In this document: one piece after another, positions 7,227-61,831 of the stretch
Layout: every line of letters begins with the position of its first letter
How positions within the stretch are numbered: position 1 is the stretch's first letter
Source of the DNA: Eledone cirrhosa
Taxonomy: Eukaryota
Assembly (NCBI GenBank): GCA_964016885.1
Contig: OZ024743.1
Coordinates: 325,934,001-325,998,000, forward strand
DNA length: 64,000 nt
Direction of reading: 5' to 3'
Translations under genes and position numbers: made by a program
The notes under the pieces: generated by a model
The model's database searches: none
Told to the model about the DNA's origin: nothing
What the model saw: the letters and a program-made list of their open reading frames with translations, nothing else

Positions 7227-9075
7227 AATGACCCTCCGTCGGTTTCATCAATAAGTGTTCCAGTTACTTGATCAACGAAACAGCCTTCTTATGAAATTAC
7301 CGTGTAAGTAGCTGTGCATTGCACAGACACGTGTATCTTTAAAGTCATATTCAAAGAAATTCAGCGTGGGACAATGTGTGACAAGGGTGTCCCTTTGAAT
7401 TACAGGTATAATCCATCCGACGAGCTTCCAAACAGTTTCTGTCTACTCAGTTTCGCTCACAAGACATGGGTTGAACCGTGGCTATGGTAAATGACATTTT
7501 CCCAAGATGTTACTTGGTGAGATTGAACCCGGAACCTAATTATTACAAAACCAACTTCATAACCATTCAGTCTTGCTGCGTTGGCAATACGTAGTGAGGT
7601 TCAGCGTTGCACAGTGTGTGACAAGGCTGGCCTTTTGAATTACCAGACTATTTTCGTCTACCCCATTTCACTCACAAGGTATGGGTCAACCAGAGGCTAT
7701 GGTGAATGTCACTTGAACAAGATTCCATTAGGTGCGAATAAACTCAAGATCTAATGAATGCAAAACGAATTTCTTAACTATTTGGTTATGCTGCGTCTAC
7801 ACTTTATTTCACGGTGCTCCAGTCTACTCAGCTGGCAAAAATAAGTTGTACATGGAGTTGAACGAGTCAGCCATGTAATATTGTGTCACACTTGACCTCT
7901 ATAAGAACTATATTAAGATTATAGTAAATGACGTCACGTATTGGGATTGAATCCGAGACCTATTGATTACGAACTGTATAAGTGATTCGCTTACTGTATG
8001 GTTATTTTAAGAACTGTTTGTGTGAGACAAGTAAACATGGAGTTTTGTCTGTGCAACTTACGGTCATTACCCTGTTAATGGATAGAAGCAGAGATAGTGT
8101 TTGGGGAGATAATCTCTTTATTGTATATATGTATAGGCGTTGAATTGGCTGAGTTGTCAGCACGTAGGATAGAATGGTTTGCAATATTCGTTCCGGCTCT
8201 CTGAGCTCTGAGTTCAAATTCGGCCAAGTTCAACTTTGCCTTTCATCCTTTCGAGGTTGATAAATAAAGTACCATTTGATTCTTCCTCTATAACTCTTCT
8301 TTACTCTCCCACACTTTCTCTGTCTCTCAAAACACGTCGTGTGTGTGTGTGTGTCTATGTATGTAGGTAGGTAGGTAAGTAGGTATATATGTAGGTAGGT
8401 AGGTATGTATGTATGTATGTAGGTGGGTAATTAGGTAAGTAGGTAGGTATATATGTATGTATGTGTATGTGTCCCACTCACGATCGAAAGGTCGTGCAAG
8501 CAATTTCCGCCGGCGCGTTGTGTCCTTGGGCAAGACACTTTATTTGACATCGTTCCACTGCAGCTGGCAAAAATGTGATTCAAAGGGCAAGCTTTGTCAT
8601 TCTAGGCCACGCTGAAGCTCCCTGAGAACTACATTAAAGTCTCACGTGTCGGTGGAATGCTCAGGCACTTGCACTTTATTTCAGGAGCGTGCTGGTCCGT
8701 TGTTCGAACAATTGGAACACTCATTACCCATCGTTGGAACTGACGAAGGTTCAACACACATACATACACACACATATATGTATGCATATGTGTTTGCGTT
8801 TGTATTTGTATGTTCTTGAATGCATGTATTTAAATATGAGTACATATGTGCATGTATTTGTATATGTTGTATATGCGGGATGAATAGAAATGTGTGTTCG
8901 TGTATATGTGTATGTCAAACGTTGCCAAACGTTGCGTGCGAGGTGTTAGTGTTAAACCGGATGGCCAGTTACGTCAAACATTCACTCAAGTAGGCCACGG
9001 CTGAACTTAAAATCAGAACGCAAAGAACAGGAACAGATACCGCAAGGCATTTTGCCCTACTCACTGACTTGTATA

Positions 9076-9965
9076 CGAGGTGTGTCAGAAAAGTTCCAGG
9101 ACTGATGTCACAAACAATTTATTTCAAACCCAAACTTCACACTAAGAGTTTTCTCCTTCAAAGTAATCCCCCTGGATAACTGTAATGTTAGCTCTCAGCA
9201 GCGATCAAACTTTTTTCTTCATAATTTATATACATGTCCTCTGTTTCAGGTCGTCAAGCAATGAGCACAGAGCAACGAACAAACTTGAAAACTCCGCCAG
9301 AAGCACTGGGATTGCTGCAGCAAGTGTATGGAGATGAGACGATGTCACGCTCACGTGTTTTTGAGTGGTGCAAGAGGTTTAAAGAAGGACGCGAGGACGT
9401 GGAAGACGACCCCAGAAGCGGAAGGCCCTCAACAACCAGGACTGAGGTCAACGTTGAGCGCATCGGGCAGATGGTGCGTAGCGATCGTCGGCTGACTGTT
9501 CGACTGATGGCAAATGAGCTGGGCATGAATCGGGACAGCGTCTGGAAGATTCTCACTGAAGATTTGGACATGCGGAAAGTCTGCGCGAAGATGGTGCCAA
9601 AACTGCTGAACAATGACCAGAAGGGTCGACGCATGCAAGTGTGTCAGGACATCTTCGAGCGTCTTGAAACCGAACCAGACTTGCTAGGGACAGTCATCAC
9701 TGGTGATGAGTCATGGATCTTCAAGTACGACCCGGAGGGGACCCGTTTTGAAGACGTGGACGACATCAAAAAGACCGTGACGACGGAATTGCGGAGGATC
9801 CCGGAAGAATCCTTCCAGGACTGCATGCAAGCGTGGCAGAAAAGGATGGAAAAGTGCATTAGACTCCAGGGGGATTACTTTGAAGGAGAAAACTCTTAGT
9901 GTGAAGTTTGGGTTTGAAATAAATCTTTTGTGACATCAGTCCTGGAACTTTTCTGACACACCTCG
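9076..9965 (+). mobile_element. Non-autonomous mariner (Tc1/mariner) with ~101-bp TIRs and TA TSD
   Basis: TA-cgaggtgtgtcagaaaagttcc...ggaacttttctgacacacctcg-TA; TIRs 9076-9176 and 9865-9965; transposase motifs SGRP, KMVPKLL, TGDESW, GDYFEG. Confidence 0.95.
9234..9899 (+). pseudogene. Mariner transposase with in-frame deletion of most of the DD34D catalytic domain
   Basis: HTH region and TGDESWIFKYDPE join directly to the C-terminal GTRFEDVDDIKK; the second and third catalytic Asp segments are missing. Confidence 0.9.
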
Positions 9966-11643
9966 TATGTATGTACAGGCGGTGAATTGACAGAATGGAG
10001 ATTTTCTTGTCGAATAGTATGTTTAATTTATTGTTGTTGCTGCTGCTGCTGTTGTTTTCATTGTTGTTATTGTTGTTGTTGCTGTTGTTGTTCTTGTTTT
10101 CCTCGTTGTTATGGTTGTTGTTGCTGCTGTTGTTGTTGTTTTATTGTTGTTATCGTTATTGTTATTGTTGTGTAACCAGAAGTGTCTCTGGTTTAGACAA
10201 CGTATGATCAAATACGTCGCAGCTGGGACCAATTCCACCTCCTTGTATATTCAAGACAACTTTATTCAATGTCCATATGGACGCAGTATGACTGAATGGG
10301 TAAGGTGTTCGCTTCTCAATCATTAGGTCCTTGGTTCCAACCCACTGTGTGGCAACTTGAGCAAATGTCATTTACCTAGCCACAGGTCGACCCATGCCTT
10401 GTGAATGAAATTGGATTGACTGAAACTGTTTGGAAGCCCGTATAATGGACTTTTCCTATAATTCGTAGGGTCAGCCATGCCATACAGTATGTCACGCTGA
10501 ATCTCCCTAAAAATTACGCTCAGGGCACACGTGCCTGTGGAATGCTCAACCACTTACACGTTAATTTCATGAGCCAACTGTTCTGTTGATCGAAGAACTG
10601 GAATAGTCATCGTCGAAACAGACGTAGCTTCATACCATTTAACATCCAACTTTGTTTTTAAAACAACAGATCGTGTCCTAATTGAGATTTAGTTGCTATA
10701 TTTAGAAGGTCGAGCGACCGTGAGGAAGTTTCTTTTGTTCGTTTTTGTGAATGACGGGGGTTATTTGATGGGTTGCTCATATATTATCGTAATAGTTGTT
10801 TTATGTTCTTTTTTTGCTGATATTGTTGTTTTATGTTCATGTTGTTGTTAGTGGGGGTGGTTCTTGCTTGAGGGTATTGTTTTTTTTGTTTTGTTTTTTT
10901 GCTGTAGTCGTTAAGATAATTTTACAGTTTTTAATTTTCAAGGTTTTGCTTATTAACATTTTGCTCACTGATTTTTCCGGTTGCTAGTTGAGTATTGTTG
11001 ATATATCGCTGTTAATATATTTTAATAAGATGGTTATACCACAATAATGATGTCTAATTTAAGCTCAATTTGGGGTGGGGCAGTCAATAATATTGACCCC
11101 ATTGCTTGACTGGTACTTTATCTTATCAAAGGATGAAACACAAAGTTAATTTCAGTGGGATTTGAAACGTAAAGAGGCGCAACAAATACTGAAAAGCATT
11201 TTGTCCGGCGCTCTAACGATTCTGCAAATCCACCTCCCCCAATCATACAATAATAACAACAATAGTAATAATAATTGTTTCTGATTTAGGCACAAGGCCA
11301 GCAATTTGGAGGAAGGAGGAAGTCGATTCAATTGACCTCAGTGCGTTACTGGTACTTTATTTTATCGAACCCGTAAGGATGAAAGGTAAAACTAACCTCG
11401 GCGGGATTTGAATTCAGAAAGTAAACTCTATGCTGCGAAGCATGGTACCCGACGCTCTACCTATTCGGCCAGTCCATCGCCCTAACAATAGTAATAATAA
11501 TAATAATTGTTCCTTTATTTGCCACAAAGGGCTCAAGCATACAATACAATATTCGTTAAAAAATCAGATACTGCAATGCATTTGGGGCTGGACAAACGAA
11601 GTTATATAAAAATAGAGGTTGTAGGGTGGGGGACAAAAATGTT

Positions 11644-15217: not shown

Positions 15218-15590
15218 TGTGTGTGTGTGCCTTGGTTTTGGTACAGAAAGAATTTTGACTCCAGTTTGTATTACCAGGTCAAAGGCCACTGTTCTTTTCA
15301 ACAACGCCATATATATATATATATAAATGGAAAAATTAAACGAAATTTCATTTCTCACTCTTAGTACAGCTGTTACTTAAATATAAGTATGTATACGTAC
15401 ATTTATATATGTATACAGACGTACAGTAGTATATATATATATATACATACATGCACTCATATATACATTTACGTATGGATTTACCGAACATTTATTATAA
15501 TGCTCGGTTTGTTTGTAAATAAACATCCCAAATTAAGCCGTACAGTGTTTATCAACCATCGTTGCTCTTTTGTTCAACACTGACAAAGGA

Positions 15591-15633
15591 ACGATGTACT
15601 AGTTTCAAGCTTATTAGCTATCGTCAGCACCGT
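15591..15633 (-). ncRNA. Type I hammerhead ribozyme (family X)
   Basis: Reverse complement of the 15984 motif. Confidence 0.9.
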
Positions 15634-15983
15634 ATACCTACCTGCCAGATGATTGAGCGTCTGAAAGTATATACTTTCCTTATGCATATTAACGGCTGAG
15701 CAGTCTAATTTGCATATCGAGTGAGTTAATCGGCCGGGCGCACCGAAAACGATAAATGGAAAAAATGAAACGAAATTTCATTTCTCACTCTTAGTACGGC
15801 TGTTACTTAAATATAAGTATGTATACGTACATACATATATGTATACAGACGTACAGTAGTATGTATATATATACATACATGCACACATTAACTCACTCGA
15901 TATGCAAATTAGGCTGCTCAGCCGTTGATATGCATAAGGAAAGTATATACTTTCAGACGTTCAATCATCTGGCAGGAAGGTAT

Positions 15984-16026
15984 ACGGTGCTGACGATAGC
16001 TAATAAGCTTGAAACTAGTACATCGT
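15984..16026 (+). ncRNA. Type I hammerhead ribozyme (family X)
   Basis: acggtg CTGACGA t agct-aata-agct t GAAAC TA GTA catcgt: intact core, stems I and II, palindromic ACTAGT stem III. Confidence 0.9.
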
Positions 16027-16607
16027 TCCTTTGTCAGTGTTGAACAAAAGGGCAACGATGGTTGCTAAACACTGTACGGCTTAATTCGGGATGTTTGTTT
16101 ACAAACACACCGAGATTTATAATAAATGTTCGGTGAATCCATACGTACATATATATATGTGTGCATGTATGTATATATATATACATACTACTGTACGTCT
16201 GTATACATATATGTATGTACGTATACATACTTATATATATATATATATAAATTAAGAGAGAAAGAAGGGGTTGCAGAGCGAGTAAGAACTGTGTGTGTGT
16301 GTGTGTGTTTGGTAAACGTATATCTATCTATCTATCTATCTCCAACAGGGGGTTCAAACATGGTAGACCAGACTGAAAAAAGAAAGTATATATATGTGTG
16401 TGTGTGTATAATATATATTGATTCTTGTGAATTCTATATAACTGCTCTGTAGAACGACTGATGTTATTACATTGAGCTATTTATCTTACTGGTAATAAGG
16501 TAGTAATAAATTACCGACCTTCACTGTTTAAGGTTTAAAATATACATAACTATAAAAAGTTTAATATATACATAACCATAAATAGTATCCTTAATATTAT
16601 ATATATA

Positions 16608-16797
16608 TATAGTGCAAATTTATATGGGAACAAAACAGAGAGGCAGAAAAATAAAGATTTATTAGGTTCACGCTTTTGAGAGTGGGGGGGGGGGGACAAC
16701 GTTTCGGGCATAATCCCTTCTTCAGGAGTATGTTCCCGTATAAATTTGCACTATACTATACACGCTTACACGGCTCCACACCACCTCGGAATACTAT
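16608..16797. mobile_element. Small fold-back element containing a hammerhead core (16695-16725, -)
   Basis: Arms tatagtgcaaatttatatgggaaca / tgttcccgtataaatttgcactata; minus strand CTGAAGA a ggg-attatg-ccc GAAAC gtt GTC; ~40-nt tail. Confidence 0.7.
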
Positions 16798-17212: not shown

Positions 17213-17280
<68 letters not shown>

Positions 17281-17286
<6 letters not shown>

Positions 17287-18145
17287 GACGTAAAATAAGA
17301 AAATTATAAAAGTTAACTTACTAAAATTTCACTCCAACTAATTAGTTTCTGAAAGGGAATAAACATGGTTTCCAAATGGAAAGCATGGAGAAGCCATTTC
17401 GTCATCAGGAAGTCTATTCTCAGCTAAGTTACCAGGCGATGCGTGGACACAGGGAACTTATACAAAAATAATTCAGTGGATGGAAAAAAGCAAGCGTGGA
17501 CTAAATTCCAAGACATTGAACAAATCACTGCCTACTTCGTCGGTGGCAAATTCAAAAGAATCAATCACGTGACATCGAAGTTAATCAGTGAGGACTGGGT
17601 GTTAAAAAGACAGTAGCCGAGCCATTACTATGAACTATAGTAGCAGTTTTGGCAAATTTTAGCTCAACAAAATAATTTGGAGATAATTATAAAGAATTAG
17701 TATATCTACCAACATATATATACAGATGCATACCTATGCTAGCAAATATATAGGTTGTGTCTTAGTAACTTTGTGGTTCAATGCAAGGGGATGCAGAACA
17801 ATTATATGAAAGACGTAAAATAAGAAAATTATAAAAATTAACTTACTTACTAAAATTTCACTCCAACTAATTAGTTTCTGAAAGGGAATAAACATGGTTT
17901 CCAAATGGAAAGCATGGAGAAGCCGTTTCGTCATCAGGAAGTCTGTTCTCAGCTAAGTTACCAGGCGATGCGTGGACACAGGGAACTTATACAAAAATAA
18001 TTCAGTGGATGGAAAAAAGCAAGCGTGGACTAAATTCCAAGACATTGAAAAAATCACTGCCTACTTGGTCGGTGGCAAATTCAAAAGAATCAATCACGTG
18101 ACATCGAGGTTAATCAATGAGGAGTGGGGTGTTAAAAAGACAGTT
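17281..18145 (-). mobile_element. Partial tandem hammerhead element family Y (period ~529 bp)
   Basis: 17281-~17620 is repeated at ~17805-18145; abuts (TA)n; hammerheads at 17331-17413 and 17860-17942. Confidence 0.8.
17331..17413 (-). ncRNA. Type I hammerhead ribozyme with long stem II (family Y; second copy 17860-17942)
   Basis: acttc CTGATGA cgaaatgg...ccctttca GAAAC TAATTA GTT ggagt. Confidence 0.75.
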
Positions 18146-18706
18146 GCTTCTTTTTGTTGTCATTTCTGTTGAAGTTGTTCTTGTAACTGTTGTCAAAATT
18201 GACATCCTTATGCTCATTTTCTTTGATTTCTTTCGTTTTTTTTATCTCCCTAGGGAATTCGTTGACAAGCTTCTTTTATTTATTTTCTTCGTTTTCTTCA
18301 TTCAAATGCATTCACACTGGCTATCTAAGAGACGTACAAATATGACTTATAAAACTTACCAAACTAAAAAACTAAAGGGGCTTCCAGCGCTCCCCCAAAG
18401 CTTCAAACGCCCCCTATCGCCCCCTTGCTCCCAAACGCCCGTCTAGAGCTCCGAAACGCCCCCCCCCCCATATAAAAACGTACTCATGCTTTATGGCTTG
18501 GTCTTTTCATGTTGATCATATCGACTTCTATTTTCAAACTCAATTAAACCTACTTAATATTATTAGACATATATGTTACATGTACCCCAGTATTTATAGG
18601 GCATTTCATTTCGATCGGATGGACAATATTCAAGAATGTGATGTTTTCACCTGTCATCAAATTTCAAACACCGTGTTTATGAGCTTTGAACACACACGCA
18701 CACAAT

Positions 18707-20870: not shown

Positions 20871-21312
20871 AATGTAATCTGAGTTTTTCGAATATTAATA
20901 ATAACATTCGATTCGTTTGCAATTGTGCAAACAAGCCTCATTTTTAAAGCCATGTAATATATATATATAATTTCTAGGTGCAAATCCCATGGTCACCAAA
21001 GACCATGGGATTTTCACCTAGAAAGTTTCCCTCTGCGACATAATTCCGAGCAAAGATGTTTTGTGGAAGACCAACAGTCGCCCATGCATACCAGCCTCCC
21101 CTCTCCACGCCACCGATGATGTCCAAAGGAAAGCTTCACACCGGTGACGTTGCAACTCATTTCTACAGCTGAGTAAACTGGAGCAACGTGAAATAAAGTG
21201 TCTTCACCTGGTCCGAGAATCGAACTCACAACCTCCCGATTGCAAGCCCAATGCTCTAACCACTAAGCCATATATATATATTTCAGAGCACCAATCCTAA
21301 TATATATATATA

Positions 21313-22293
<981 letters not shown>

Positions 22294-26020: not shown

Positions 26021-26325
26021 TTCCGAATAAAAGATAAAGGAAAGAAGAGTGCTCTATGTAGAGTAGAGCTATTTAATTATATAATAGACAACACAATATA
26101 TTTATTCCATTACCTAAGGTTTCATGAAGCTAGACGATCTTAACAGAAACGTCTAGTACGCTCATCAGATGAAATATTTAAGTTATGGATATAAGATTTG
26201 AATATATCGATAACATAAATATTTCATCTGATGTGCGTACTAGACGTTTCTGTTAATATCGTCTTGTTTCATGAAACCTTAGGTAATGGAATAAATATAT
26301 TGTGTTGTTTATTATATAATTAAAT
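26021..26325. mobile_element. Fold-back hammerhead element; related copy at ~44970-45165
   Basis: Arms ~26069-26180 and 26216-26325; ~48-nt tail at 26021-26068. Confidence 0.8.
26103..26176 (-). ncRNA. Type I hammerhead ribozyme; inverted copy 26220-26293 has A9>U
   Basis: tatttcat CTGATGA gcgta ctagacg...cgtctag cttcat GAAAC CTTAG GTA atggaata. Confidence 0.75.
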
Positions 26326-26485
26326 ATATATATATAAATGTGTGCGCGTGTGTGTGTGTGTGTGATATGCCGCCGGCAGGAAAAACACGTCCTTCTGCTC
26401 GTGAACCCGGCAGACATATATATATAACAAAATCGAATTTCATCTGAGGATTCCGTTCTCATAACAACAACAAATACATGACCCT

Positions 26486-26557
26486 GTTGTGTTGGTGTAA
26501 ATGGTAGCACAGTGGTCCGGATAACCAAAGATGTGGGTTCGACTCCCATGTACGTCA
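26486..26557 (+). pseudogene. tRNA-like sequence (pseudo-tRNA or SINE head)
   Basis: A-box TGGTGTAAATGG, D-arm, tggt/acca anticodon stem, T-arm gtgggTTCGActccca; acceptor stem is imperfect. Confidence 0.5.
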
Positions 26558-27562: not shown

Positions 27563-28383
27563 ATATACTATAAATTATGTCCATAGGATCATTTGATAAG
27601 ATATATACACCATTTCCTCTCCCAATCATCATAATCAACCACACAAAAAAACAATTAAACCAGGCTATAAGATTAAAAGGCACCTATAAAGAAATAGTAG
27701 ATAAATAAACGACAGCCATCTATTTGCGATCAACAGCTATCGAATATTTACCCAGCATTTCAATAGCACGTGGAAATCGATTAAATATATCGTCAACCAT
27801 ACACAATTAGGTATAAAATTAAAGTTAGAAGAAAAAATGCATATAAACATACCAGGATTACGTTTCTACCCAGTTCTTAGCCATTTTGAATTCGTTTCTT
27901 GCGGGGATCATTTAAGAAAAATCTTCGTCCAAGTGAGTTTGTTTCCTGATGATTTCGAAGCTCGAGAATTTATCCTTGATCGGATATTTCCAAAAGCGAA
28001 TGAAACCCTAAGGGGTAGAAACGTAATCCTGGTATGTTTATATGCATTTTTTCTTCTAACTTTAATTTTATACCTAATTGTGTATGGTTGACGATATATT
28101 TAATCGATTTCCACGTGCTATTGAATGGTGGGTAAATATTCTATAGCTGTTGATCGCAAATAGATGGCTGTCGTTTATTTATCTATTATTTCTTTATAGG
28201 TGCCTTTTAATCTTATAGCCTGGTTTAATTGTTTTTTTGTGTGGTTGATTATGCTAATTGGGAGAGGAAATGGTGTATATATCTTATCAAATGATTTTAT
28301 GGACATAAATTATAGTATATTGCTCTGATTATTTAATTTATTAATTCATCATTGAGCCACATCGTAAATGGTTGCCAAAAACA
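27563..28383. mobile_element. Fold-back hammerhead element, ~308-bp arms
   Basis: 27563-27871 inverted to 28013-28320; ~62-nt tail. Confidence 0.85.
27941..28022 (+). ncRNA. Type I hammerhead ribozyme
   Basis: gtttc CTGATGA t ttcg...cgaa t GAAA ccc-taag-ggg TA gaaac. Confidence 0.85.
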
Positions 28384-30599: not shown

Positions 30600-30639
<40 letters not shown>

Positions 30640-30689
30640 AGTATGTATGTATACGTACATACATATATGTATACAGACGTACAGGAGCA

Positions 30690-30751
<62 letters not shown>

Positions 30752-30908
30752 TACATACAGGTACACATACATATATGTACGTATCAGTTTAGCGGACGCT
30801 TATTATAACGCCCGCTTTGTTCGTTTGTAAACAAACTGAACAGCCTGAATTTATGCCGTACGGTGTTAAGGCAACCACGTCACCTTTTTGTTCAACACTG
30901 ACACAGGA

Positions 30909-30951
30909 ACGATGTACTAGTTTCAAGCTTGTTAGCTATCATCAGCACCGT
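30909..30951 (-). ncRNA. Type I hammerhead ribozyme (family X)
   Basis: CTGATGA core, same stems as 15984. Confidence 0.9.
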
Positions 30952-31390
30952 ATACCCTTCTGCCAGATGGTTGAACGTTCGAAAGTATATACTTTCCTTA
31001 TGAAAATTAACGGCTGAGCAGCCTAATTTGCATATCGAGTGAGTTCGGCCAGGCGTACCGAAAACGATAAGTTGTAATAAAATGAAAACGAAATTTCATT
31101 TCTCACTCTTAGTACGGCACTTAATTAAATGTAAGTATGTATGTATACGTACATACATATATGTATACAGACGTACAGTAGCATGCATATATATATATAT
31201 ATATACATATATACATACAGGTACACATACATATATGTACGTATCAGTTTAGCGGACGCTTATTATAACGCCCGCTTTGTTCGTTACGCCTGGCCGAACT
31301 CACTCGATATGCAAATTAGGCTGCTCAGCCGTTAATTTTCATAAGGAAAGTATATACTTTCGAACGTTCAACCATCTGGCAGAAGGGTAT

Positions 31391-31433
31391 ACGGTGCTGA
31401 TGATAGCTAACAAGCTTGAAACTAGTACATCGT
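31391..31433 (+). ncRNA. Type I hammerhead ribozyme (family X)
   Basis: acggtg CTGATGA tagctaacaagctt GAAACTAGTA catcgt. Confidence 0.9.
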
Positions 31434-31614
31434 TCCTGTGTCAGTGTTGAACAAAAAGGTGACGTGGTTGCCTTAACACCGTACGGCATAAATTCAGGCT
31501 GTTCAGTTTGTTTACAAACGAACAAAGCGGGCGTTATAATAAGCGTCCGCTAAACTGATACGTACATATATGTATGTGTACCTGTATGTATATATGTATG
31601 TGTACCTGTATGTA

Positions 31615-31654
<40 letters not shown>

Positions 31655-31768
31655 TGCTACTGTACGTCTGTATACATATATGTATGTACGTATACATACA
31701 TACTTACATTTAAGTAAGTGCCGTACTAAGAGTGAGAAATGAAATTTCGTTTTCATTTTATTACAACT

Positions 31769-31801
<33 letters not shown>

Positions 31802-31843
31802 ATCACAGTTGAAAATTGCAAACTCGACTGTCACCACATATTA

Positions 31844-31882
31844 TGAACCTGAAGATTGCGAAAGCATGAAAGTACTTGTTCA
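31844..31882 (+). ncRNA. Minimal 39-nt type I hammerhead ribozyme
   Basis: tgaac CTGAAGA t tgc-GAAA-gca t GAAA GTAC TT gttca. Confidence 0.8.
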
Positions 31883-32149
31883 ATTAACACTTAGAATTTA
31901 ATATTCTATCATACTATTTCATTATAATACCATTATATATTTTAAAGGATTGTAAATAAAACGAGTAAATCAGACAAAGTTGGAATTCCTCTTATTAATA
32001 TAATCTTCTATACACAATCATACACACCCGTGTATATTTACCTATCTATATACATATATATATATGTTCCTATTACCCACTCTACTACCCTAAGTATTGA
32101 GTACTTTGGTGCGTTATGGTCCACCTGGTTCCTTACCACATTTCCTTCG

Positions 32150-32933: not shown

Positions 32934-33450
32934 AAAAGAAAATTTTCGCTCTACATGGTTGAATACAATAAATGTAATCTGAGTTTTTCGAATATTAATA
33001 ATAACATTCGATTCGTTTGTAATTATGCAAACAAGCCTCAACTTTATAGCCATGTCAGTAGAATGAACCCTTCATTCTTGCTCTTGTGCTGGTATGTGAA
33101 CAGAACTGCAGACACTAATGTTTCTGGATATCACCCTTCATCAGTACAGCTCACTGTTCACCTGCCTAACCGTCAGAACTAGTGAAAATATATGCTATTT
33201 TCAAAAATACACAGGGACTGATCGGCCTGATTTGCATATTAGCAGACTGGTTGATCAGTCAGATTTGCATATCAGCAGACTGGCCAATCAGTTTCCTGTA
33301 TACGAGCGATAAGTGGCCGGCTTTGCCAAATTCAACACAAGAGCAAGAATGAAGGGTTCATTCTACTGACATGGCTATAAAATTAAAGCTTGTTTGCATA
33401 ATTGCAAACGAATCGAATGTTATTATTAATATTCGAAAAACTCAGATTAC

Positions 33451-33454
<4 letters not shown>
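32934..33454. mobile_element. Fold-back hammerhead element; arm fragment also at ~20868-20955
   Basis: 32969-33089 inverted to 33336-33454; ~35-nt tail; TA flanks. Confidence 0.85.
33106..33149 (-). ncRNA. Type I hammerhead ribozyme
   Basis: ctgta CTGATGA agggtgatatcca GAAACA-ttag-TGTC tgcag. Confidence 0.85.
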
Positions 33455-33531
<77 letters not shown>

Positions 33532-34551: not shown

Positions 34552-34631
<80 letters not shown>

Positions 34632-35284
34632 GGTAAATTTCTTTGTCGTTTGGAAGCCTCGACAATGCAGATGGGTAAATCTCCGGGTAACAAGATCCGG
34701 TGGTGGAGAGAGAGATGTAAGTGGGTGTACGTTGAGATGCGTGGCGTGTATAAGACGTGTAGAGGAATGAAGGAAAGTGCGAAGGATAAAAATAAAAATA
34801 ACAACACGAGAGAGAGTTACCTTGGGAGAGATTTAATTGTCCCTATATATTTCGTATTCACATCCAACAACTGGGGTTTTTTCCGGGGGAGGGGGGAGGT
34901 TGTCTGTCGGAAAGGTGCGAAACGTGTCCGCTGTTCGTTGTTTTACGTTTCGCACCTTTCCGACAGACAACCTCCCCCCCCCCCCCCCGGAAAAAAACCG
35001 AGTTGATGGATGTGAATCCGAAATATATAGGGACAATTAAATCTCTCCCAAGGTAACTCTCTCTCGTGTTGTTATTTTTATTTTTATCCTTTACGCTCTT
35101 TCCTTCGTTCCTCTACACGTCTTATTAACGCCACGCATCTCAACGTACACCCATTTACATCTCTCTCTCCACCACCGGATCTTGTTACCCGGAGATTTAC
35201 CCATCTGCATTGTCGAGGCTTCCAAACGACTTAAAGAAATTTACCTTATTATTCCACAATGCTTCAAGAAAACTTCAATACTCT

Positions 35285-35290
<6 letters not shown>
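34632..35290. mobile_element. Near-perfect ~615-bp palindromic element with tail
   Basis: 34632-34925 inverted to 34945-35246; ~20-nt spacer; ~43-nt tail; (TA)n flanks. Confidence 0.85.
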
Positions 35291-35320
<30 letters not shown>

Positions 35321-39639: not shown

Positions 39640-41294
<1,655 letters not shown>

Positions 41295-41504
41295 AGTATG
41301 TATGTATGTATACGTACATACATATATGTATACAGACGTACAGTAGTATGTATACATATATGCACACACATATATATGTACGTATCGGTTTACCGAACAG
41401 TTATTATAATGCTCGGTTTGTTTGTAAACAAACAAACAGCCGGAATTACGCCGTACAGTGTTTAGGCAACCACCTCACCTTTTTGTTCAACACTGACACA
41501 GGAA

Positions 41505-41547
41505 GAAATGTACTAGTTTCAAGCTTATTAGCTATCGTCAGCATCGT
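41505..41547 (-). ncRNA. Type I hammerhead ribozyme (family X, stem I partly decayed)
   Basis: acgatg CTGACGA tagctaataagctt GAAACTAGTA cattt. Confidence 0.75.
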
Positions 41548-41868
41548 ATACCTTCCTGTCAGATGGTTGAACGTCTGAAAGTATATACTTTCCTTATGCA
41601 TATTAACGGCTGAGCAGCCTAATTTGCATATCGAGTGAGTTTAGTAGGACGATAAATGGAATAGAATGAAACGAAATTTCATTTCTCCATCTTAGTACGG
41701 CAGTTACTTAAATGTAAGTATGTATGTATACGTACATACATATATGTATACATACGTACAGTAGTATGTATATATATTTATACACACTGCAAATTAGGCT
41801 GCTCAGCCGTTAATATGCATAAGGAAAGTATATACTTTCAGACGTTCAACCATCTGACAGGAAGGTAT

Positions 41869-41911
41869 ACGATGCTGACGATGGCTCATAAGCTTGAAAC
41901 TAGTACATCGT
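41869..41911 (+). ncRNA. Type I hammerhead ribozyme (family X)
   Basis: acgatg CTGACGA tggctcataagctt GAAACTAGTA catcgt; perfect stem I. Confidence 0.9.
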
Positions 41912-42102
41912 TCCTGTGTCAGTGTTGAACAAAAAGGTGACGTGGTTGCCTAAACATTGTACGGCGTAATTCGGGCTGTTTGTTTGTTTACAAACAAACA
42001 AACCGAGCATTATAATAAATGTTCGGTAAACCGATACGTGCATATTTATATGTGTGCATACATACATACATACATACATACATACATACATACATACATA
42101 CA

Positions 42103-42133
<31 letters not shown>

Positions 42134-42214
42134 GTATGTACGTATACATACATACATACTTACATTTACGTAAGTGCCATACTAAGAGTGAGAAATGAAA
42201 TTTCGTTTCATTCT

Positions 42215-42264
<50 letters not shown>

Positions 42265-46790: not shown

Positions 46791-46986
46791 GTATACATAC
46801 ATACCTATACGCTATGTTCATATATTGCAGATGTCAACAGAAACGAGGAGCTGGCTGGAATCTGAAACTACGATGACAAATAAAGAACTGAATACTATAT
46901 AGAATTCCGAAGAAAAAATATATATACACATACATATATATATATTTACGCCTGGTTAAACGTTTAAACGGAGAGCGAAACCCGCC

Positions 46987-48925
46987 ATGAATGACTGCGA
47001 AACTATGTTAAAGCGCAGCGTATTGTTGCAAAATGCAATCAAAAGACGAAACTCATTACATGAAGAGGATGGCACCAACGATCCACATGGACACCTTACA
47101 AACAACGCTAGCAACGACATCGTTAACAACGGTAGCAACGACATCGTTAACAACGGTAGCAACGGCATCGTTAACAACGGTAGCAACGACATCGTTAACA
47201 ACGGTAGCAACGGCATCGTTAACAACGGTAGCAACGGCATCGTTAACAACGGTAGCAACGGCATCGTTAACAACGGTAGCAATGGCAATGCTAACCCCGG
47301 TAGTAATAGCAATGTTAATATTCACCACGCTGTCAACGGTAACAACAACAACGTTAACAACGCTAATAATGAATTCTCAAACTGGGTCCCCGCTCACATT
47401 GTGACCCATTCAATACATCCGGGTGTTAATATAAAAAAACCTCTCAGTCGTCTGGACTATCCAGTTCGGCACACACCCATAGGATCGATGCCTGGGAGTC
47501 ACTCAGACCTGTGGACCTTGAAAGAACAAGACGAAGTCGATGGCGAAAATGATGTCGGCGACGTCGACGACGATGATGATGATGATGATGATATTGATGA
47601 TGATATCATTAACGTAAACGGGGTGGTATGGGAGGGGATAGTAGAAGTAGAGGAAGCGAAGAAGAAGAACTTCTGTGTAGATGTTGTGAATGGAAGCGAG
47701 ACGGAGACAGTTGGAAAGACGTGTAAAAAAGGCTGGGGTGATGGTGTTTACAGAGGAGGAAAAGAGAAAGAGAATGAAGAGAATGAAGAAAAACAGAGTG
47801 GCGACGGTGGTGACAAGGAAAGCGGTGGGGAAGCTATGTTGAAAGAGGAAAGTAAAGCAGCTTGTGAGGAGAATGGGGAGAAGAGGGAGGAGTGGGAGGA
47901 AATAATAGAAGTGAGGGAAGAGGAGAAGGAGGAAAAGAAAGGGGAAGAGCAACAGACAGTGAGACCGAATTATTATTCTTCGAATGAGTATGAATTCGAG
48001 ACAGCGAGTGAGGAAATAGGTTTGCTTGAAGTTAAGGTGGAAAAGCAGTGGCGTGGTGCTAGTGCTTGTGGTCCTAAAATGCTACGTTCGGATACGACAA
48101 CTACGACATGCCATGATTCCGTACCTACAATTTTAGCTTGGCCAGATTCCTGCCGGAACCAATCGGACAGCAAAGAGTTGGGACATAAATCAAAGAAAAA
48201 CTTAGAAACAAATGCAATGCCGAAACTGCTTGAAACGAAACTCAACATAGACAATCTGTGTGACGAAACTGTACCTTTAGTTGACACGGGTACATCACAG
48301 CAACAATCTACCGACCCAGCACTTCCTTCGCCGTTGTTACCATCTCCACCCCCTCCACCAGTTACCTCTTCTGCAGCCTCTTCAAGTCCTCTGCACTCTA
48401 ATCATTCTAACCATAATCATCATCATCAGATTTTCCTTCAACAACAAAAGCAGCAACAGCAGCAGCAGCAGCAGCAGCAACAGCAACACCAACAGCAGCA
48501 ACAACAACAACAGCCGCAAAAGTCCCATGCACACTTTACATGTTCACCTCCTACCAGTCTAACTGTTTCCACAAGTTCCATTCCACCATGTACCAGAAAA
48601 AGTTCATCCGTTTCTACGTCTTCGTCTACTTCTTCGTCTTCTTCTTCTTCTCCGACGACACACTCTGCTGTCGTTGTCGAAGGCGACACAACTACAATAG
48701 GAAAGGATCCCTTCCTCACGGAAGTTCTCGATCCGAACCCCGACTTCCCAACGACAGGTCATTCTATCAACGACATTATTAAGATGTCTCTAGAGGATTA
48801 CGTCGAGCTGAAAGACGAAGAGAAGAGACGTCGCCTCTCAGTTGATGTGTTACCCATTTCTAATAAACCAAGGCAAAGTTACTCTAAGATGGTAGCACAT
48901 CAGGCGATCAATGAATCAGAAACTG
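46987..48925 (+). CDS. Large coding exon of an unidentified host gene; low-complexity, probably disordered N-terminal region (NNGSNGIV repeats, poly-D, E/K-rich, poly-P, poly-Q, S/T-rich)
   Basis: 648-codon open frame that is not dinucleotide-microsatellite derived. It ends in AACTG|GTAAGT (canonical donor at 48926, phase 1). An upstream acceptor-like TATATTGCAG ends at 46830. Confidence 0.75.
47101..47283 (+). repeat. 24-bp coding tandem repeat (about 7.5 copies) encoding NNGSN[D/G]IV
   Basis: aacaacggtagcaacg(a/g)catcgtt repeated in frame inside the large ORF. Confidence 0.9.
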
Positions 48926-49918
48926 GTAAGTGACATCCTTTTGTTGATTTGTTGTTATTGCTGTTTTCTTTTGTTCTTCTTGATGCTTTTTGTTTCTTTA
49001 TTTTTTGGTTATTTTTGTTGGTTGTTTTCCAAATATTAACATTTGTGTTAATGAATGTGTGTTTCCTTGAGTGTGTAGTATATGTGTGCATCACGTGTGG
49101 CGGTTATACATGAGTGCATGGGTATATGTACGTATATGTACAGGGTGGCCACAGCATGGCCTATTGGTTAGGGGGTTCGCTTCGCAATCATTAGGTCCCG
49201 TGCATGACATCTTGAACAAGTGTCGTTTTCCATAGCTTCAGGTGGACCCATGGCCCGAGTCGTGTCGGGCAGAAGGAAACTGTTTGTAAACCCGACGACT
49301 CTACCTGTAGTTCAAAGTGCCTTGTCACGCTCTGTGTCATACTGAACTTCCATGAGAATTACGTTAAATGTACACATGCCTGTGGAATGCTCAGCCACTT
49401 GCACGTTAATTTTACGAGCAGACTGTTCCGTTGCTCGACTAACTGGAACACTCATCGTCGAAACCGACGGAGGGAGCAGACTTCCATTCTCTATGTTTGT
49501 GCATCATATATATATGTGTGTGTGTAAGAGAGTGTGTGTGTGTGTGTGAGTGTAAAGGCGGGTAACAGTAATAATAGTAGTAATCCGGTTGGTCTATGTC
49601 AATGTAGTAGTACAACAGCTAAACGAACGACAACAATAGTATATTAAAGTATATAAAAATGCAGGCATAGCTGTGTGGTGAAGAAGTCGTAACCATATGA
49701 TTCTGGCTTCAGTCTCGTTGTGCATCACGTTGGTCAAGTGCTGTTTACTATAGCTTTGTGTTGACCGGAGACTTAAGAGTGGAATTTGGTAAGCAGAAAC
49801 TGCAAAAACCCGCAATGCATATATATATATATATATATATATATTCCACTTCCTCCAGGCGTGAACCTTATATAAATGTGCTTCTTGTGTTTTGTTTGTT
49901 TTATTTATTAACTATAGA

Positions 49919-53157: not shown

Positions 53158-53647
53158 ATGGTAAATGACACATTCGCAAGATACCACGCAGTTGGATCAA
53201 ATTAAAGACCTAATTATTGCAAAGTGAACATCTTAACAATTCAGCTATGCTGCCTCCACATCCACATATTACATCAAAAGCTTCCCCATTTAACATGACT
53301 ACCGCTCAAGTGCAATCAAATATATTCATTGTCTTAGTAGCTGGGTCACAACGTGACATGCAAGAGAGATTTCTCCTCGACCCTCAACTATATTTGTTTT
53401 CTGTCATTGAACTGCGGCCATGCTGGGTTACCGGTCTCGAAAAGTATCAGCAATAAAGTCGACCTGAACATAAACAGAGATGATCAGGATGTGAAGGGAT
53501 CTGATTCTGTCAACTCCTGCCGATTTATATAAATATATTTAACCGATGGACTTCTTTTTCGGGGCTATAATAGAAGATACTTACTTGCTCATGTTGGCCA
53601 CATAATAAAATCGATCGCAGAAACACAGCCATATATGTGTGTGTGTC

Positions 53648-53737
<90 letters not shown>

Positions 53738-53895
53738 TCATGTTTATATGTACGTGTGGTTTACTTATATATACATTACTTATACATATATGACTATTTT
53801 ATGTAAATATAATATTATATTTACATAAAATAGTCATATATGTATAAGTAATGTATATATAAGTAAACCACACGTACATATAAACATGAGCACAT

Positions 53896-53955
<60 letters not shown>

Positions 53956-54445
53956 GACACACACACATATATGGCTGTGTTTCTGCGATCGATTTTATTA
54001 TGTGGCCAACATGAGCAAGTAAGTATCTTCTATTATAGCCTCGAAAAAGAAGTCCATCGGTTAAATATATTTATATAAATCGGCAGGAGTTGACAGAATC
54101 AGATCCCTTCACATCCTGATCATCTCTGTTTATGTTCAGGTCGACTTTATTGCTGATACTTTTCGAGACCGGTAACCCAGCATGGCCGCAGTTCAATGAC
54201 AGAAAACAAATATAGTTGAGGGTCGAGGAGAAATCTCTCTTGCATGTCACGTTGTGACCCAGCTACTAAGACAATGAATATATTTGATTGCACTTGAGCG
54301 GTAGTCATGTTAAATGGGGAAGCTTTTGATGTAATATGTGGATGTGGAGGCAGCATAGCTGAATTGTTAAGATGTTCACTTTGCAATAATTAGGTCTTTA
54401 ATTTGATCCAACTGCGTGGTATCTTGCGAATGTGTCATTTACCAT
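53158..54445. repeat. ~1.29-kb spacerless palindrome (inverted duplication of ordinary genomic DNA)
   Basis: Arms mirror about 53813/53814 (gtaaatataat|attatatttac); an identical 79-aa spurious ORF appears on both strands. Confidence 0.9.
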
Positions 54446-61319: not shown

Positions 61320-61831
61320 TATTGTTATACTTTGGGAGGGTCATGTTGCCAATAAGAAACACACGCACCAGTTGCTTTCACTCCAATTTATTATAAATTT
61401 AAAAATTTATAAATTTCCGGTTGGTTGGTTCCACAACCGGACGGTTGTTCATATATCGTCAAAGTTCCTTCGTCACACATTCTGTGACCGCTTCATTGAC
61501 TGGGGATTCTTCTCTATGTTTTGTGCCTCTCCTTTGTTCAGTCCTACGCCATCTTGTTTTTGTGAGAAGAATCCTCAGTCACTGAAGAGGTCACAGAATG
61601 TGTGATGAAAGAACTTTGAAAATATATGAACAACCGTCCGGTTGTGGAACCAACCAACCAACCGGAAATTTCTAAATTTCTAAATTTATAATTTAATTTA
61701 TAATAAATTGGAGTGAAACAACTGGTGCGTGTGTTTCTTATTGGCAACATGACCCTCCCAAAGTATAACAATATCGGTTTCAACACACGTTTTCAGATAA
61801 AGAATCTTGCTAAACAAATTCAGAAACGAAA
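61320..61831. mobile_element. Fold-back hammerhead element; arm end also seen at ~1412-1448
   Basis: 61320-61514 inverted to 61563-61772; ~58-nt tail. Confidence 0.85.
61578..61620 (+). ncRNA. Type I hammerhead ribozyme
   Basis: gtca CTGAAGA g gtcaca-gaatg-tgtgat GAAA gaac TT tgaa; the mirror arm supplies stem I partner tgac. Confidence 0.7.

What the first reader, a model, noticed from the sequence alone, without database searches (positions are those of the whole stretch)
15323..16232. Family X: ~430-500 nt non-coding unit with a minimal dimer-type hammerhead, tandem and circularly joined, at three loci
Seen: at all three loci (15323, 30636, 41291) the unit runs through a unit-end/unit-start junction (gaaaacgat|aa.tg at loci 1 and 2, ggacgat|aaatgg at locus 3) into a second partial unit, then inverts. 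There is no coding capacity. All six hammerheads keep the catalytic core; changes fall at N7 (C/T), in the stem II loop, or convert G-U to A-U in stem I (acggtg to acgatg), and only the 41505 copy has a partly decayed stem I. Stem III is the palindrome ACTAGT. Established: such short-stem-III hammerheads are thought to cleave as dimers in tandem transcripts. Inference: a retrozyme-like unit whose monomer RNA may circularise and be reverse-transcribed more than once around.
Basis: partly seen in the sequence, partly recalled or inferred. Interest (0 to 1): 0.75.

Follow-up and report, generated by a model that had tools for sequence, protein, structure and literature searches.

The report
Penelope-pasted ribozyme repeat with snRNA promoter
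A 430-500-base non-coding repeat with a hammerhead self-cutting motif has over 20,000 copies in this animal genome, often as back-to-back arms ending at two fixed points; it is likely copied from a small, probably circular RNA by a Penelope-type jumping-gene enzyme, and it carries a predicted promoter that matches the host's U6 genes.

Summary
The three loci belong to a family with more than 26,000 exact matches genome-wide. It is a non-LTR retrozyme (non-autonomous, type I hammerhead) whose insertions carry the Penelope-like (PLE) footprint: (TA)n targets, head-to-head arms and two fixed outer ends, A and B, about 60 nt apart. All 50 classifiable inverted pairs have one A and one B end. Copies run across the predicted cut site (99 of 100 unbiased matches), and the arms and tandem units of one insertion share rare variants. 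The template was therefore one RNA continuous across the cut: a re-ligated circle (favoured) or an uncleaved multimer. A roughly 66%-identical sister family keeps the fold and core with re-paired stems. Each unit carries a 12-mer found at -77 to -79 of the host's U6 and U6atac genes. None of 95 sampled PLE loci has the unit as its pseudo-LTR. No RNA evidence was obtained; cleavage, circles, transcription and the partner enzyme are untested. No window arm has two same-strand hammerheads. The scan noted the same footprint and promoter before, on other DNA.

The parts
15323..15888 (-). Locus 1 long arm, about 1.3 monomers; outer (3') end at site B against (TA)n; reads through site B at about 15752-15755
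15887..16236 (+). Locus 1 short arm, about 0.8 monomer; outer end at site A (exact base ambiguous within TA); 94.6% identical to the other arm
15591..15633 (-). Type I hammerhead motif; predicted cut after 15597
15984..16026 (+). Type I hammerhead motif; predicted cut after 16020
15705..15716 (-). Octamer-containing 12-mer shared with host U6/U6atac upstream regions (predicted promoter element)
15901..15912 (+). Same U6-like 12-mer in the short arm
15663..15678 (.). Palindromic TATA-like box, 43 nt downstream of the start of the 12-mer (predicted); a second copy lies at 15939-15954
15323..15381 (-). Tail between sites A and B (about 59 nt, with a hairpin), present at one outer end only
30635..31285 (-). 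Locus 2 long arm (subfamily X1), about 1.3 monomers; outer end at site A; reads through B at about 31064-31070
31286..31771 (+). Locus 2 second arm; outer end at site B; 98.1% identical to the other arm over 423 nt; start read by eye, script start 31297
30909..30951 (-). Type I hammerhead motif; predicted cut after 30915
31391..31433 (+). Type I hammerhead motif; predicted cut after 31427
41290..41786 (-). Locus 3 long arm, about 1.15 monomers; outer end at site A; short-junction variant
41788..42223 (+). Locus 3 second arm; outer end at site B (end read by eye within TA); begins inside the 12-mer, so lacks a full copy of it
41505..41547 (-). Hammerhead motif with partly decayed stem I
41869..41911 (+). 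Type I hammerhead motif; predicted cut after 41905

Best explanation
This is a high-copy, non-coding hammerhead repeat (non-LTR retrozyme) that inserts into (TA)n with two fixed outer ends and is likely transcribed from its own snRNA-type promoter, likely cut to monomers and ligated into circles, and likely copied into both ends of a nicked target by an endonuclease-bearing Penelope-like reverse transcriptase. SHOWN: copy number; (TA)n target; outer ends at sites A and B; one A and one B in each head-to-head pair; read-through of the cut site; shared private variants within an insertion; conserved fold and catalytic core across families; a 12-mer shared with host U6/U6atac upstream DNA. INFERRED, step by step: (1) transcription would start about 5-10 nt upstream of stem I, if U6 spacing applies; (2) only tandem copies with two hammerheads downstream of a promoter (11 of 158 sampled arms) could give a monomer that contains its own promoter; (3) two hammerheads would pair through the ACUAGU palindrome and cut at GUA|C; (4) a host ligase would close the monomer, whose predicted fold hides the core; (5) a PLE RT-endonuclease would nick both strands of (TA)n and prime once at A and once at B on the same RNA, copying upstream through the ligated cut, sometimes for several turns; (6) the two 5'-truncated cDNAs would join head to head. 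The three window loci are then likely dead-end products.
For: Exact genome counts of 23,291, 17,440 and 26,677 for three short motifs, with reversed controls 0. Of 115 unique insertions, 158 of 184 outer ends lie at A or B, and 140 of those 158 are followed by (TA)4 within 25 nt; of 70 head-to-head insertions, 50 are A+B, none A+A or B+B, 20 unclassified. An autonomous PLE in the same genome (L093) shows the same anatomy, as do the papers (PMC8557442, PMC3846280, PMC11167929). Read-through: 23,332 of 26,677 matches (87.5%) extend exactly 6 nt across the cut; among the first 100 listed, 99 read through and 1 begins at the cut. Rare variants shared per kb: arms 6.3 and 1.75, tandem units 5.9 and 2.4, between insertions 0.07 and 0.14 (X1 and X2). 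Young arrays are near-identical internally. Seven of 85 B arms stop 54-58 nt in, at site A, as twin priming on one RNA predicts. Circular fold z -10.2 and -7.8; -4.5 and -5.6 without the microsatellite. Stem I position 3 occurs as GU 15, AU 11, UG 10 of 39; the terminal hairpin has double changes in 6 of 9 pairs. Sister family X' keeps the core and fold with re-paired stems. The 12-mer lies at -77 to -79 in three separate U6 loci and the best U6atac locus, against a background of 0.001 per 100 nt.
Against: No RNA evidence was obtained, so transcription, cleavage and circles are untested. The partner PLE was not identified; no sampled PLE family shares sequence with the unit. In the one PLE tested in vitro, cleavage was not needed and uncleaved RNA was the main template (PMC11167929), which fits read-through equally well. 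Stem II starts with U.U and stem III is 2 bp, so activity may be low; only 1 of 9 predicted Xenopus retrozyme dimers cleaved in vitro (bioRxiv 10.64898/2026.07.22.740005). In the L110 array one variant alternates A,G,A,G,G with matching unit lengths, pointing to a two-unit duplication or a dimer template rather than a pure monomer circle. RNAalifold did not recover the hammerhead and Rfam did not match. The 12-mer-to-TATA spacing is about 5 nt shorter than at U6, and T6-T8 runs near site B would stop Pol III, so the polymerase is unresolved. Covariation counts are inherited events, not independent ones. Most B arms run well past site A, which needs strand displacement or a second sibling RNA.
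Confidence: 0.6

Rival explanations
1. Same non-autonomous PLE-mobilised element, but the template is an uncleaved linear multimer transcribed from tandem source loci; the hammerhead does something else (trimming, regulation) or acts rarely, and arrays are rebuilt by template jumping or local duplication.
For: Read-through and the A/B geometry are explained equally well. Cleavage was dispensable and no RNA-seq ends were found at the cut for the anole PLE (PMC11167929). The two-unit periodicity at L110. Weak predicted ribozyme.
Against: Internal initiation plus 5' truncation shortens linear templates every generation, yet arrays of 3 to at least 7 units occur in X1, X2 and X' with array-private variants in all units and in the inverted arm. 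Core, allowed NUH triplets (GUA, GUU) and stems are kept across subfamilies and a roughly 66%-identical sister family. Comparable axolotl repeats, one with the same U.U stem II base, form circles in vivo (PMC7229834).
Confidence: 0.3
2. The unit is merely the pseudo-LTR plus tail of an autonomous Penelope-like element, and these loci are its 5'-truncated ends.
For: The insertion anatomy is that of PLE ends. Only 95 of 10,597 GIY-YIG candidate loci were examined, so a rare parent is not excluded. Xenopus retrozymes are often homologous to pLTRs.
Against: In 94 tail contexts the sequence after site B was target DNA or the unit itself, never an ORF leader (one joined a different PLE's 3' end). 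Long copies become unit-only arrays. Autonomous families sampled have unrelated pLTRs, and their site B runs into an ORF leader.
Confidence: 0.06
3. A DNA-level satellite or MITE-like repeat spread by recombination or DNA transposition, with a vestigial hammerhead.
For: Tandem arrays and inverted arms exist; microsatellite slippage changes unit length.
Against: Fixed asymmetric A/B outer ends with variable inner ends, dispersal in (TA)n, and conservation of RNA pairing rather than sequence.
Confidence: 0.03

Closest known systems
Metazoan non-LTR retrozymes (coral, mussel, axolotl; PMC7229834, passages and Discussion read; bioRxiv 10.64898/2026.07.22.740005, parts 1-3 of 5 read)
   Same: Non-coding, low-GC tandem monomers with one type I hammerhead each; monomers to multimers; highly self-paired predicted circle; axolotl HHR_Amex2 also has a 2-bp stem III and a U.U at the base of stem II.
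   Different: 430-500 nt, above the 170-400 nt RNAs measured in that paper. Here most sampled insertions are head-to-head arms with fixed A/B ends; the word 'inverted' does not occur in the main text of PMC7229834, which names PLEs only as strong candidates for the mobiliser. RNA not shown here.
Endonuclease-bearing Penelope-like elements, Neptune/Nematis type (PMC8557442 and PMC3846280, passages; PMC11167929, parts 1-2 of 4; PMC4209133, parts 1-2 of 4)
   Same: Partial tandems, inverted 5'-truncated arm, tail at one end, two internal RT start sites, AT-rich targets, hammerhead with palindromic stem III.
   Different: No ORF; the tail is about 59 nt (74 in X') against 30-40 in the papers; site B reads back into the unit, not into an ORF leader; no sequence similarity found to the sampled PLE families of this genome.
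Newt satellite 2 (seen only as cited in PMC2220036 and PMC6765202; the primary paper PMC308520 was not held)
   Same: Hammerhead tandem repeat with an internal snRNA-type promoter.
   Different: Reported as Pol II; here the element matches the host's U6/U6atac upstream 12-mer, which the sampled U1 and U2 genes lack, while a TCAG-to-TATA spacing resembles U1/U2. Polymerase unresolved.
Schistosome hammerhead SINE-like repeats (PMC6765202, passage)
   Same: The promoter lies at the 3' end of the cleaved monomer, so only tandem copies can propagate.
   Different: Described as Pol III-transcribed SINE-like repeats; no PLE-type A/B footprint is mentioned in the passage read.

Membership tests
Non-LTR retrozyme | [quoted passage not shown] | tested here: met
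   Monomers 420-540 nt; arrays of 2 to 7 units with a hammerhead each. Not met by the three window loci on their own (one motif per arm).
Non-LTR retrozyme | No protein-coding capacity, low GC; no long terminal repeats | tested here: met
   Longest ATG frames 68-72 codons, differing between subfamilies; region GC about 0.31-0.36; ends are A/B sites in (TA)n. PBS and PPT were not searched for.
Non-LTR retrozyme | Hammerhead core and helices conserved | tested here: met
   Against: RNAalifold and Rfam did not recover it.
Non-LTR retrozyme | Self-cleavage in vitro or in vivo | not testable with these tools
   Needs in vitro transcription of monomer and dimer.
Non-LTR retrozyme | Expressed as monomeric linear and circular RNA | not testable with these tools
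   No raw RNA reads were available to lay.
PLE-type insertion (works like) | Inverted 5'-truncated arm with a tail at one end only | tested here: met
   50 of 50 classifiable pairs are A+B; 20 of 70 unclassified; 8 resolved pairs in X' are also A+B, counted by eye.
PLE-type insertion (works like) | AT-rich or microsatellite target | tested here: met
   140 of 158 A/B ends followed by (TA)4 within 25 nt.
Autonomous Penelope-like element | ORF with RT and GIY-YIG endonuclease flanked by the repeat as pLTR | tested here: not met
   0 of 95 PLE loci and 0 of 94 tail contexts; the sample is small against 10,597 candidates.
U6-type (type 3 Pol III) promoter | Host upstream element present | tested here: met
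   12/12 identity with L262, 11/12 with L261, L263 and U6atac L331.
U6-type (type 3 Pol III) promoter | Element-to-TATA spacing as in host U6 genes | tested here: not met
   43 nt in X against about 47-49 nt in U6/U6atac, counted by eye; whole-block alignments to U6 upstream DNA were mostly not significant.
U6-type (type 3 Pol III) promoter | Drives transcription | not testable with these tools
   Needs reporter, ChIP or 5'-end mapping.

The most novel reading that the evidence does not exclude
A superfamily of viroid-like RNA circles that carry a captured host snRNA promoter inside the circle, process themselves as dimeric hammerheads, and are twin-primed at two fixed sites by a Penelope RT-endonuclease dimer that rolls around the circle. 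The genomic footprints would then be a direct record that PLEs mobilise animal retrozymes, with the unit an independent parasite rather than a detached pLTR.
Probability: 0.4. Interest if true: 0.7.

Novelty: new variant of a known kind. Interest (0 to 1): 0.5.

Why it matters
Which enzyme moves animal retrozymes, and whether their circles are the templates, is open: PMC7229834 names PLEs as candidates, and the 2026 preprint gives co-occurrence and homology but says the mechanism remains to be elucidated. Here the insertions themselves carry the PLE two-start-site signature in 50 of 50 classifiable pairs. They predict exact start sites, a cut site and a promoter, and a very young autonomous PLE family is present in the same genome. 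That makes the question directly testable with the existing in vitro PLE assay, using circular against linear monomer. It also adds tens of thousands of predicted ribozyme and snRNA-promoter cassettes to this genome's non-coding inventory.

Tried and rejected
RNA evidence: no RNA holder listed. Contigs of four runs were laid on window 15460-15800; one held the family at very high depth and three held only 4-13 short contigs, which I do not use as evidence of presence in other organisms. Rfam over the whole window returned mainly microsatellite-driven miRNA matches in the 150 of 279 rows shown and no hammerhead on 15930-16110. RNAalifold on 39 aged copies gave a weak consensus without the hammerhead. 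Search for an autonomous parent: GIY-YIG search and 65 loci examined; an N-terminal protein query returned a single young family; none carried the unit as pLTR. An ORF next to the L110 array is a separate PLE copy into which the array inserted. Apparent peaks of 5' stops at unit positions 235-355 are not used, because the loci were ascertained by motifs that exclude short arms. Lower copy-level divergence in the core (1.3% against 4.4%) is not used for the same reason. The 'nearest other insertion' comparison did not show within-insertion copies to be closer than the nearest outside copy; it takes a minimum over many copies and was replaced by the rare-variant rate. Paper searches showed no description of this family; the term 'octopus' rested on my untested guess about the host. 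No supplements were read, and repeat libraries such as Repbase or Dfam are not available here, so the family may already be named there.

Full report
OBSERVATION. The three loci are as described. Each is a pair of arms joined head to head, with the hammerhead-sense strand pointing outwards. The six hammerheads have a 6-bp stem I, CUGANGA, a 4-bp stem II opened by U.U, GAAA and palindromic ACUAGU, with a predicted cut after GUA. The monomer is 429 nt at locus 1 and 420-540 nt elsewhere, the spread coming from an internal TA-rich tract. The longest ATG frame is 68-72 codons and differs between subfamilies. Rfam does not call the motif.

SCALE. The window lies at G000:C4:325934001-325998000 in a 3.0-Gb genome. 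Exact matches number 23,291 for a tail 23-mer, 17,440 for a hammerhead 21-mer and 26,677 for a 25-mer just 3' of the cut; reversed controls are 0. These count units, not insertions. Twenty-eight cut-to-cut monomers fall into a young subfamily X1, an older X2 and one outlier; units differ from their consensus by 3.9% and 4.6%.

ENDS. I mapped all arms in the 210 loci held at that point plus the three window stretches, dropped insertions touching a locus edge, and removed duplicates: 115 insertions. Numbered from the cut (434-nt X2 frame), 158 of 184 outer ends fall at site A (about 221) or site B (about 268-280); 26 are elsewhere, some being alignment breaks in expanded microsatellite. 140 of the 158 run into (TA)n. 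Of 70 head-to-head insertions, 50 have one A and one B end, none has two alike, and 20 have an unclassified end. After site B the sequence is either target or the next unit (94 family contexts of 96 printed). This is the PLE anatomy: an inverted 5'-truncated arm with a tail at one end (PMC8557442 and PMC3846280, passages), where the tail is the stretch between two internal RT start sites (PMC11167929, parts 1-2). A full-length autonomous PLE of this genome shows the same layout in (TA)n, but there site B continues into the ORF leader (L093).

TEMPLATE. A linear monomer cut at the hammerhead would force cDNAs to stop at the cut. They do not. In the sample there are 2 stops against 4.0 expected over 135 crossings, but that sample is biased towards hammerhead-bearing arms. 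The unbiased test is genome-wide: 87.5% of 25-mer matches extend exactly across the cut. Of the first 100 listed, 91 extend exactly (lists compared by eye), 8 read through with point changes or a small deletion, and 1 begins at the cut. Arms and tandem units of one insertion share rare variants 13-90 times more often than separate insertions do. Young arrays are nearly uniform: L134 has three identical 466-nt monomers, and the 6.4-mer at L110 shares rare variants with its inverted arm. Seven of 85 B arms stop 54-58 nt in, at site A. One insertion thus comes from one RNA, or from siblings of one locus, continuous across the cut: a re-ligated circle or an uncleaved multimer. I favour the circle because internal initiation plus truncation erodes linear arrays each generation, yet arrays persist in three lineages (inference). 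PMC4209133 (parts 1-2) proposed circles for PLE tandems, and axolotl retrozymes form them in vivo (PMC7229834, passages and Discussion). Against it: cleavage was not needed by the anole PLE in vitro, and L110 shows an A,G,A,G,G alternation that suggests a two-unit step.

RNA-LEVEL CONSTRAINT. Circular folds lie far below shuffles (z -10.2 and -7.8 against 25 shuffles; -4.5 and -5.6 for the non-microsatellite part against 40). Stem I extends by about 14 bp, and the monomer fold pairs the core CUG with the UAG of stem III, which would silence a lone hammerhead (prediction). On 39 copies my named structure, derived from the consensus fold, is 92.5% paired, with 40 double-change cells against 13.8 in shuffles; pairs with double changes are 9 against 6.4, reached by 31 of 500 shuffles, and related sequences inflate these counts. 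RNAalifold did not find the hammerhead. The stronger evidence is the sister family X', found by chance: about 66% identical over 240 nt, collinear fold (z -10.3), the same core and palindrome, three double changes in stem I and a wholly different stem II (pairs counted by eye). In the copies I read, the cleavage triplet varies between GUA and GUU.

PROMOTER. The block best kept between X1, X2 and X' is an octamer-containing 12-mer followed by a TATA-like box, upstream of the hammerhead. The host's U6 genes at three separate loci carry this 12-mer (11-12 of 12) at -77 to -79. Three other distinct U6 upstreams lack it there: L267 and L275 have it near -272 and -276, L274 not at all. The best U6atac locus has it at -78; the other 11 U6atac loci, probably pseudogenes, lack it at that position. 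The sampled U1 and U2 genes lack it near their starts. Background is 0.001 per 100 nt. Spacing to TATA is about 5 nt shorter than at U6, X has TCAG 26 nt before the TATA as U1/U2 have TCAGT, and T6-T8 runs lie before site B, so the polymerase is open. Newt satellite 2 is reported to have an snRNA-type Pol II promoter (seen only as cited in PMC2220036 and PMC6765202). If the promoter is real, the start lies just upstream of stem I, and only tandem copies can yield a monomer that contains its own promoter: 11 of 158 sampled arms are long enough (counted), and none in the window.

PARENT OR PARTNER. The genome has 10,597 GIY-YIG candidates. Fifty loci clustered into 8 families, five with the cysteine linker of Neptune/Nematis type (clade assigned by motif as described in PMC8557442, no tree built). 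Fifteen more loci and 30 5' regions of a very young family were also read. None has the unit as its pLTR; copies nearby are separate insertions. A rare parent is not excluded, and the mobilising family is unidentified. Naiad elements also favour (TA)n.

COMPARISON AND VERDICT. By structure it meets the sequence criteria of a non-LTR retrozyme and fails those of an autonomous PLE; it works like a PLE passenger. A 2026 preprint already argues that animal retrozymes are non-autonomous PLE derivatives (parts 1-3 of 5). What the papers read do not show is the strict A+B footprint on retrozyme insertions or a host U6-type element inside the unit (searches; supplements not read). My end and promoter analyses came before the look-ups that showed the scan had noted both on other DNA (one search found nothing by sequence); those notes are not independent support. 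Verdict: new variant of a known kind, interest 0.5; best mechanism 0.6, uncleaved-multimer rival 0.3.

Noticed in passing
L223:1-900 minus (G000:C1 near 192592400); L231-L260: Sister family X': 466-nt monomer, about 66% identical over 240 nt, same predicted fold (z -10.3), canonical G-C at the base of stem II, GUU triplet, same 12-mer; very young (99%), arrays of at least 7 units, same A/B ends.
   Followed up: partly
window 32968-33456; also L100, L041, L103: Another hammerhead family in a head-to-head pair, with a near-identical 12-mer (two copies) and a TATA-like box about 94 nt upstream of the core.
   Followed up: partly
window 17278-18147 and 40375-41260: Another hammerhead family ('Y', about 529-nt tandem, palindromic stem III) without the 12-mer, directly beside locus 3.
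   Followed up: no
L092:7500-8420; L110:8100-9900: Further tandem hammerhead units of 459 nt and 310 nt, without the 12-mer.
   Followed up: no
L008:1820-1900: A family X tail joined at a T-run to the 3' end of the young Neptune-type family (L091 type) and then (TA)n: a possible template-switch chimera and a single weak hint at the partner enzyme.
   Followed up: no
L091, L181-L210: A very young autonomous Neptune/Nematis-type PLE family: at least 150 copies 96-100% identical in an N-terminal stretch, tail about 61 nt, (TA)n target.
   Followed up: partly
L343, L346, L347, L350: A third X subfamily with a GUU cleavage triplet and C at the base of stem II.
   Followed up: no
L261-L263, L331 against L281-L283, L301-L316: Host snRNA promoter grammar: U6/U6atac have the octamer-containing 12-mer at -77 to -79 and TATA near -30; U1/U2 have TCAGT near -57 and a TATA-like box near -32, without the 12-mer.
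   Followed up: partly
window 31795-32040: 3' end (pLTR with a hammerhead-like motif) of another autonomous PLE family (L094 type) directly after locus 2.
   Followed up: no
window 16640-16790: Penelope-type hammerhead core on the minus strand (16702-16725) in a short repeat.
   Followed up: no
window 9075-9975 and 21303-22178: Two inverted copies of a Tc1/mariner-like transposase remnant (224-aa frame; family name recalled from the peptide, not searched).
   Followed up: no
window 46960-48933: 657-aa open frame, probably a host exon.
   Followed up: no
window 26070-26326, 27563-28320, 34566-35317, 53158-54445, 61320-61773: Several more long inverted-repeat insertions, probably other PLE-type footprints; 26486-26557 also scores as tRNA-like in Rfam.
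   Followed up: no
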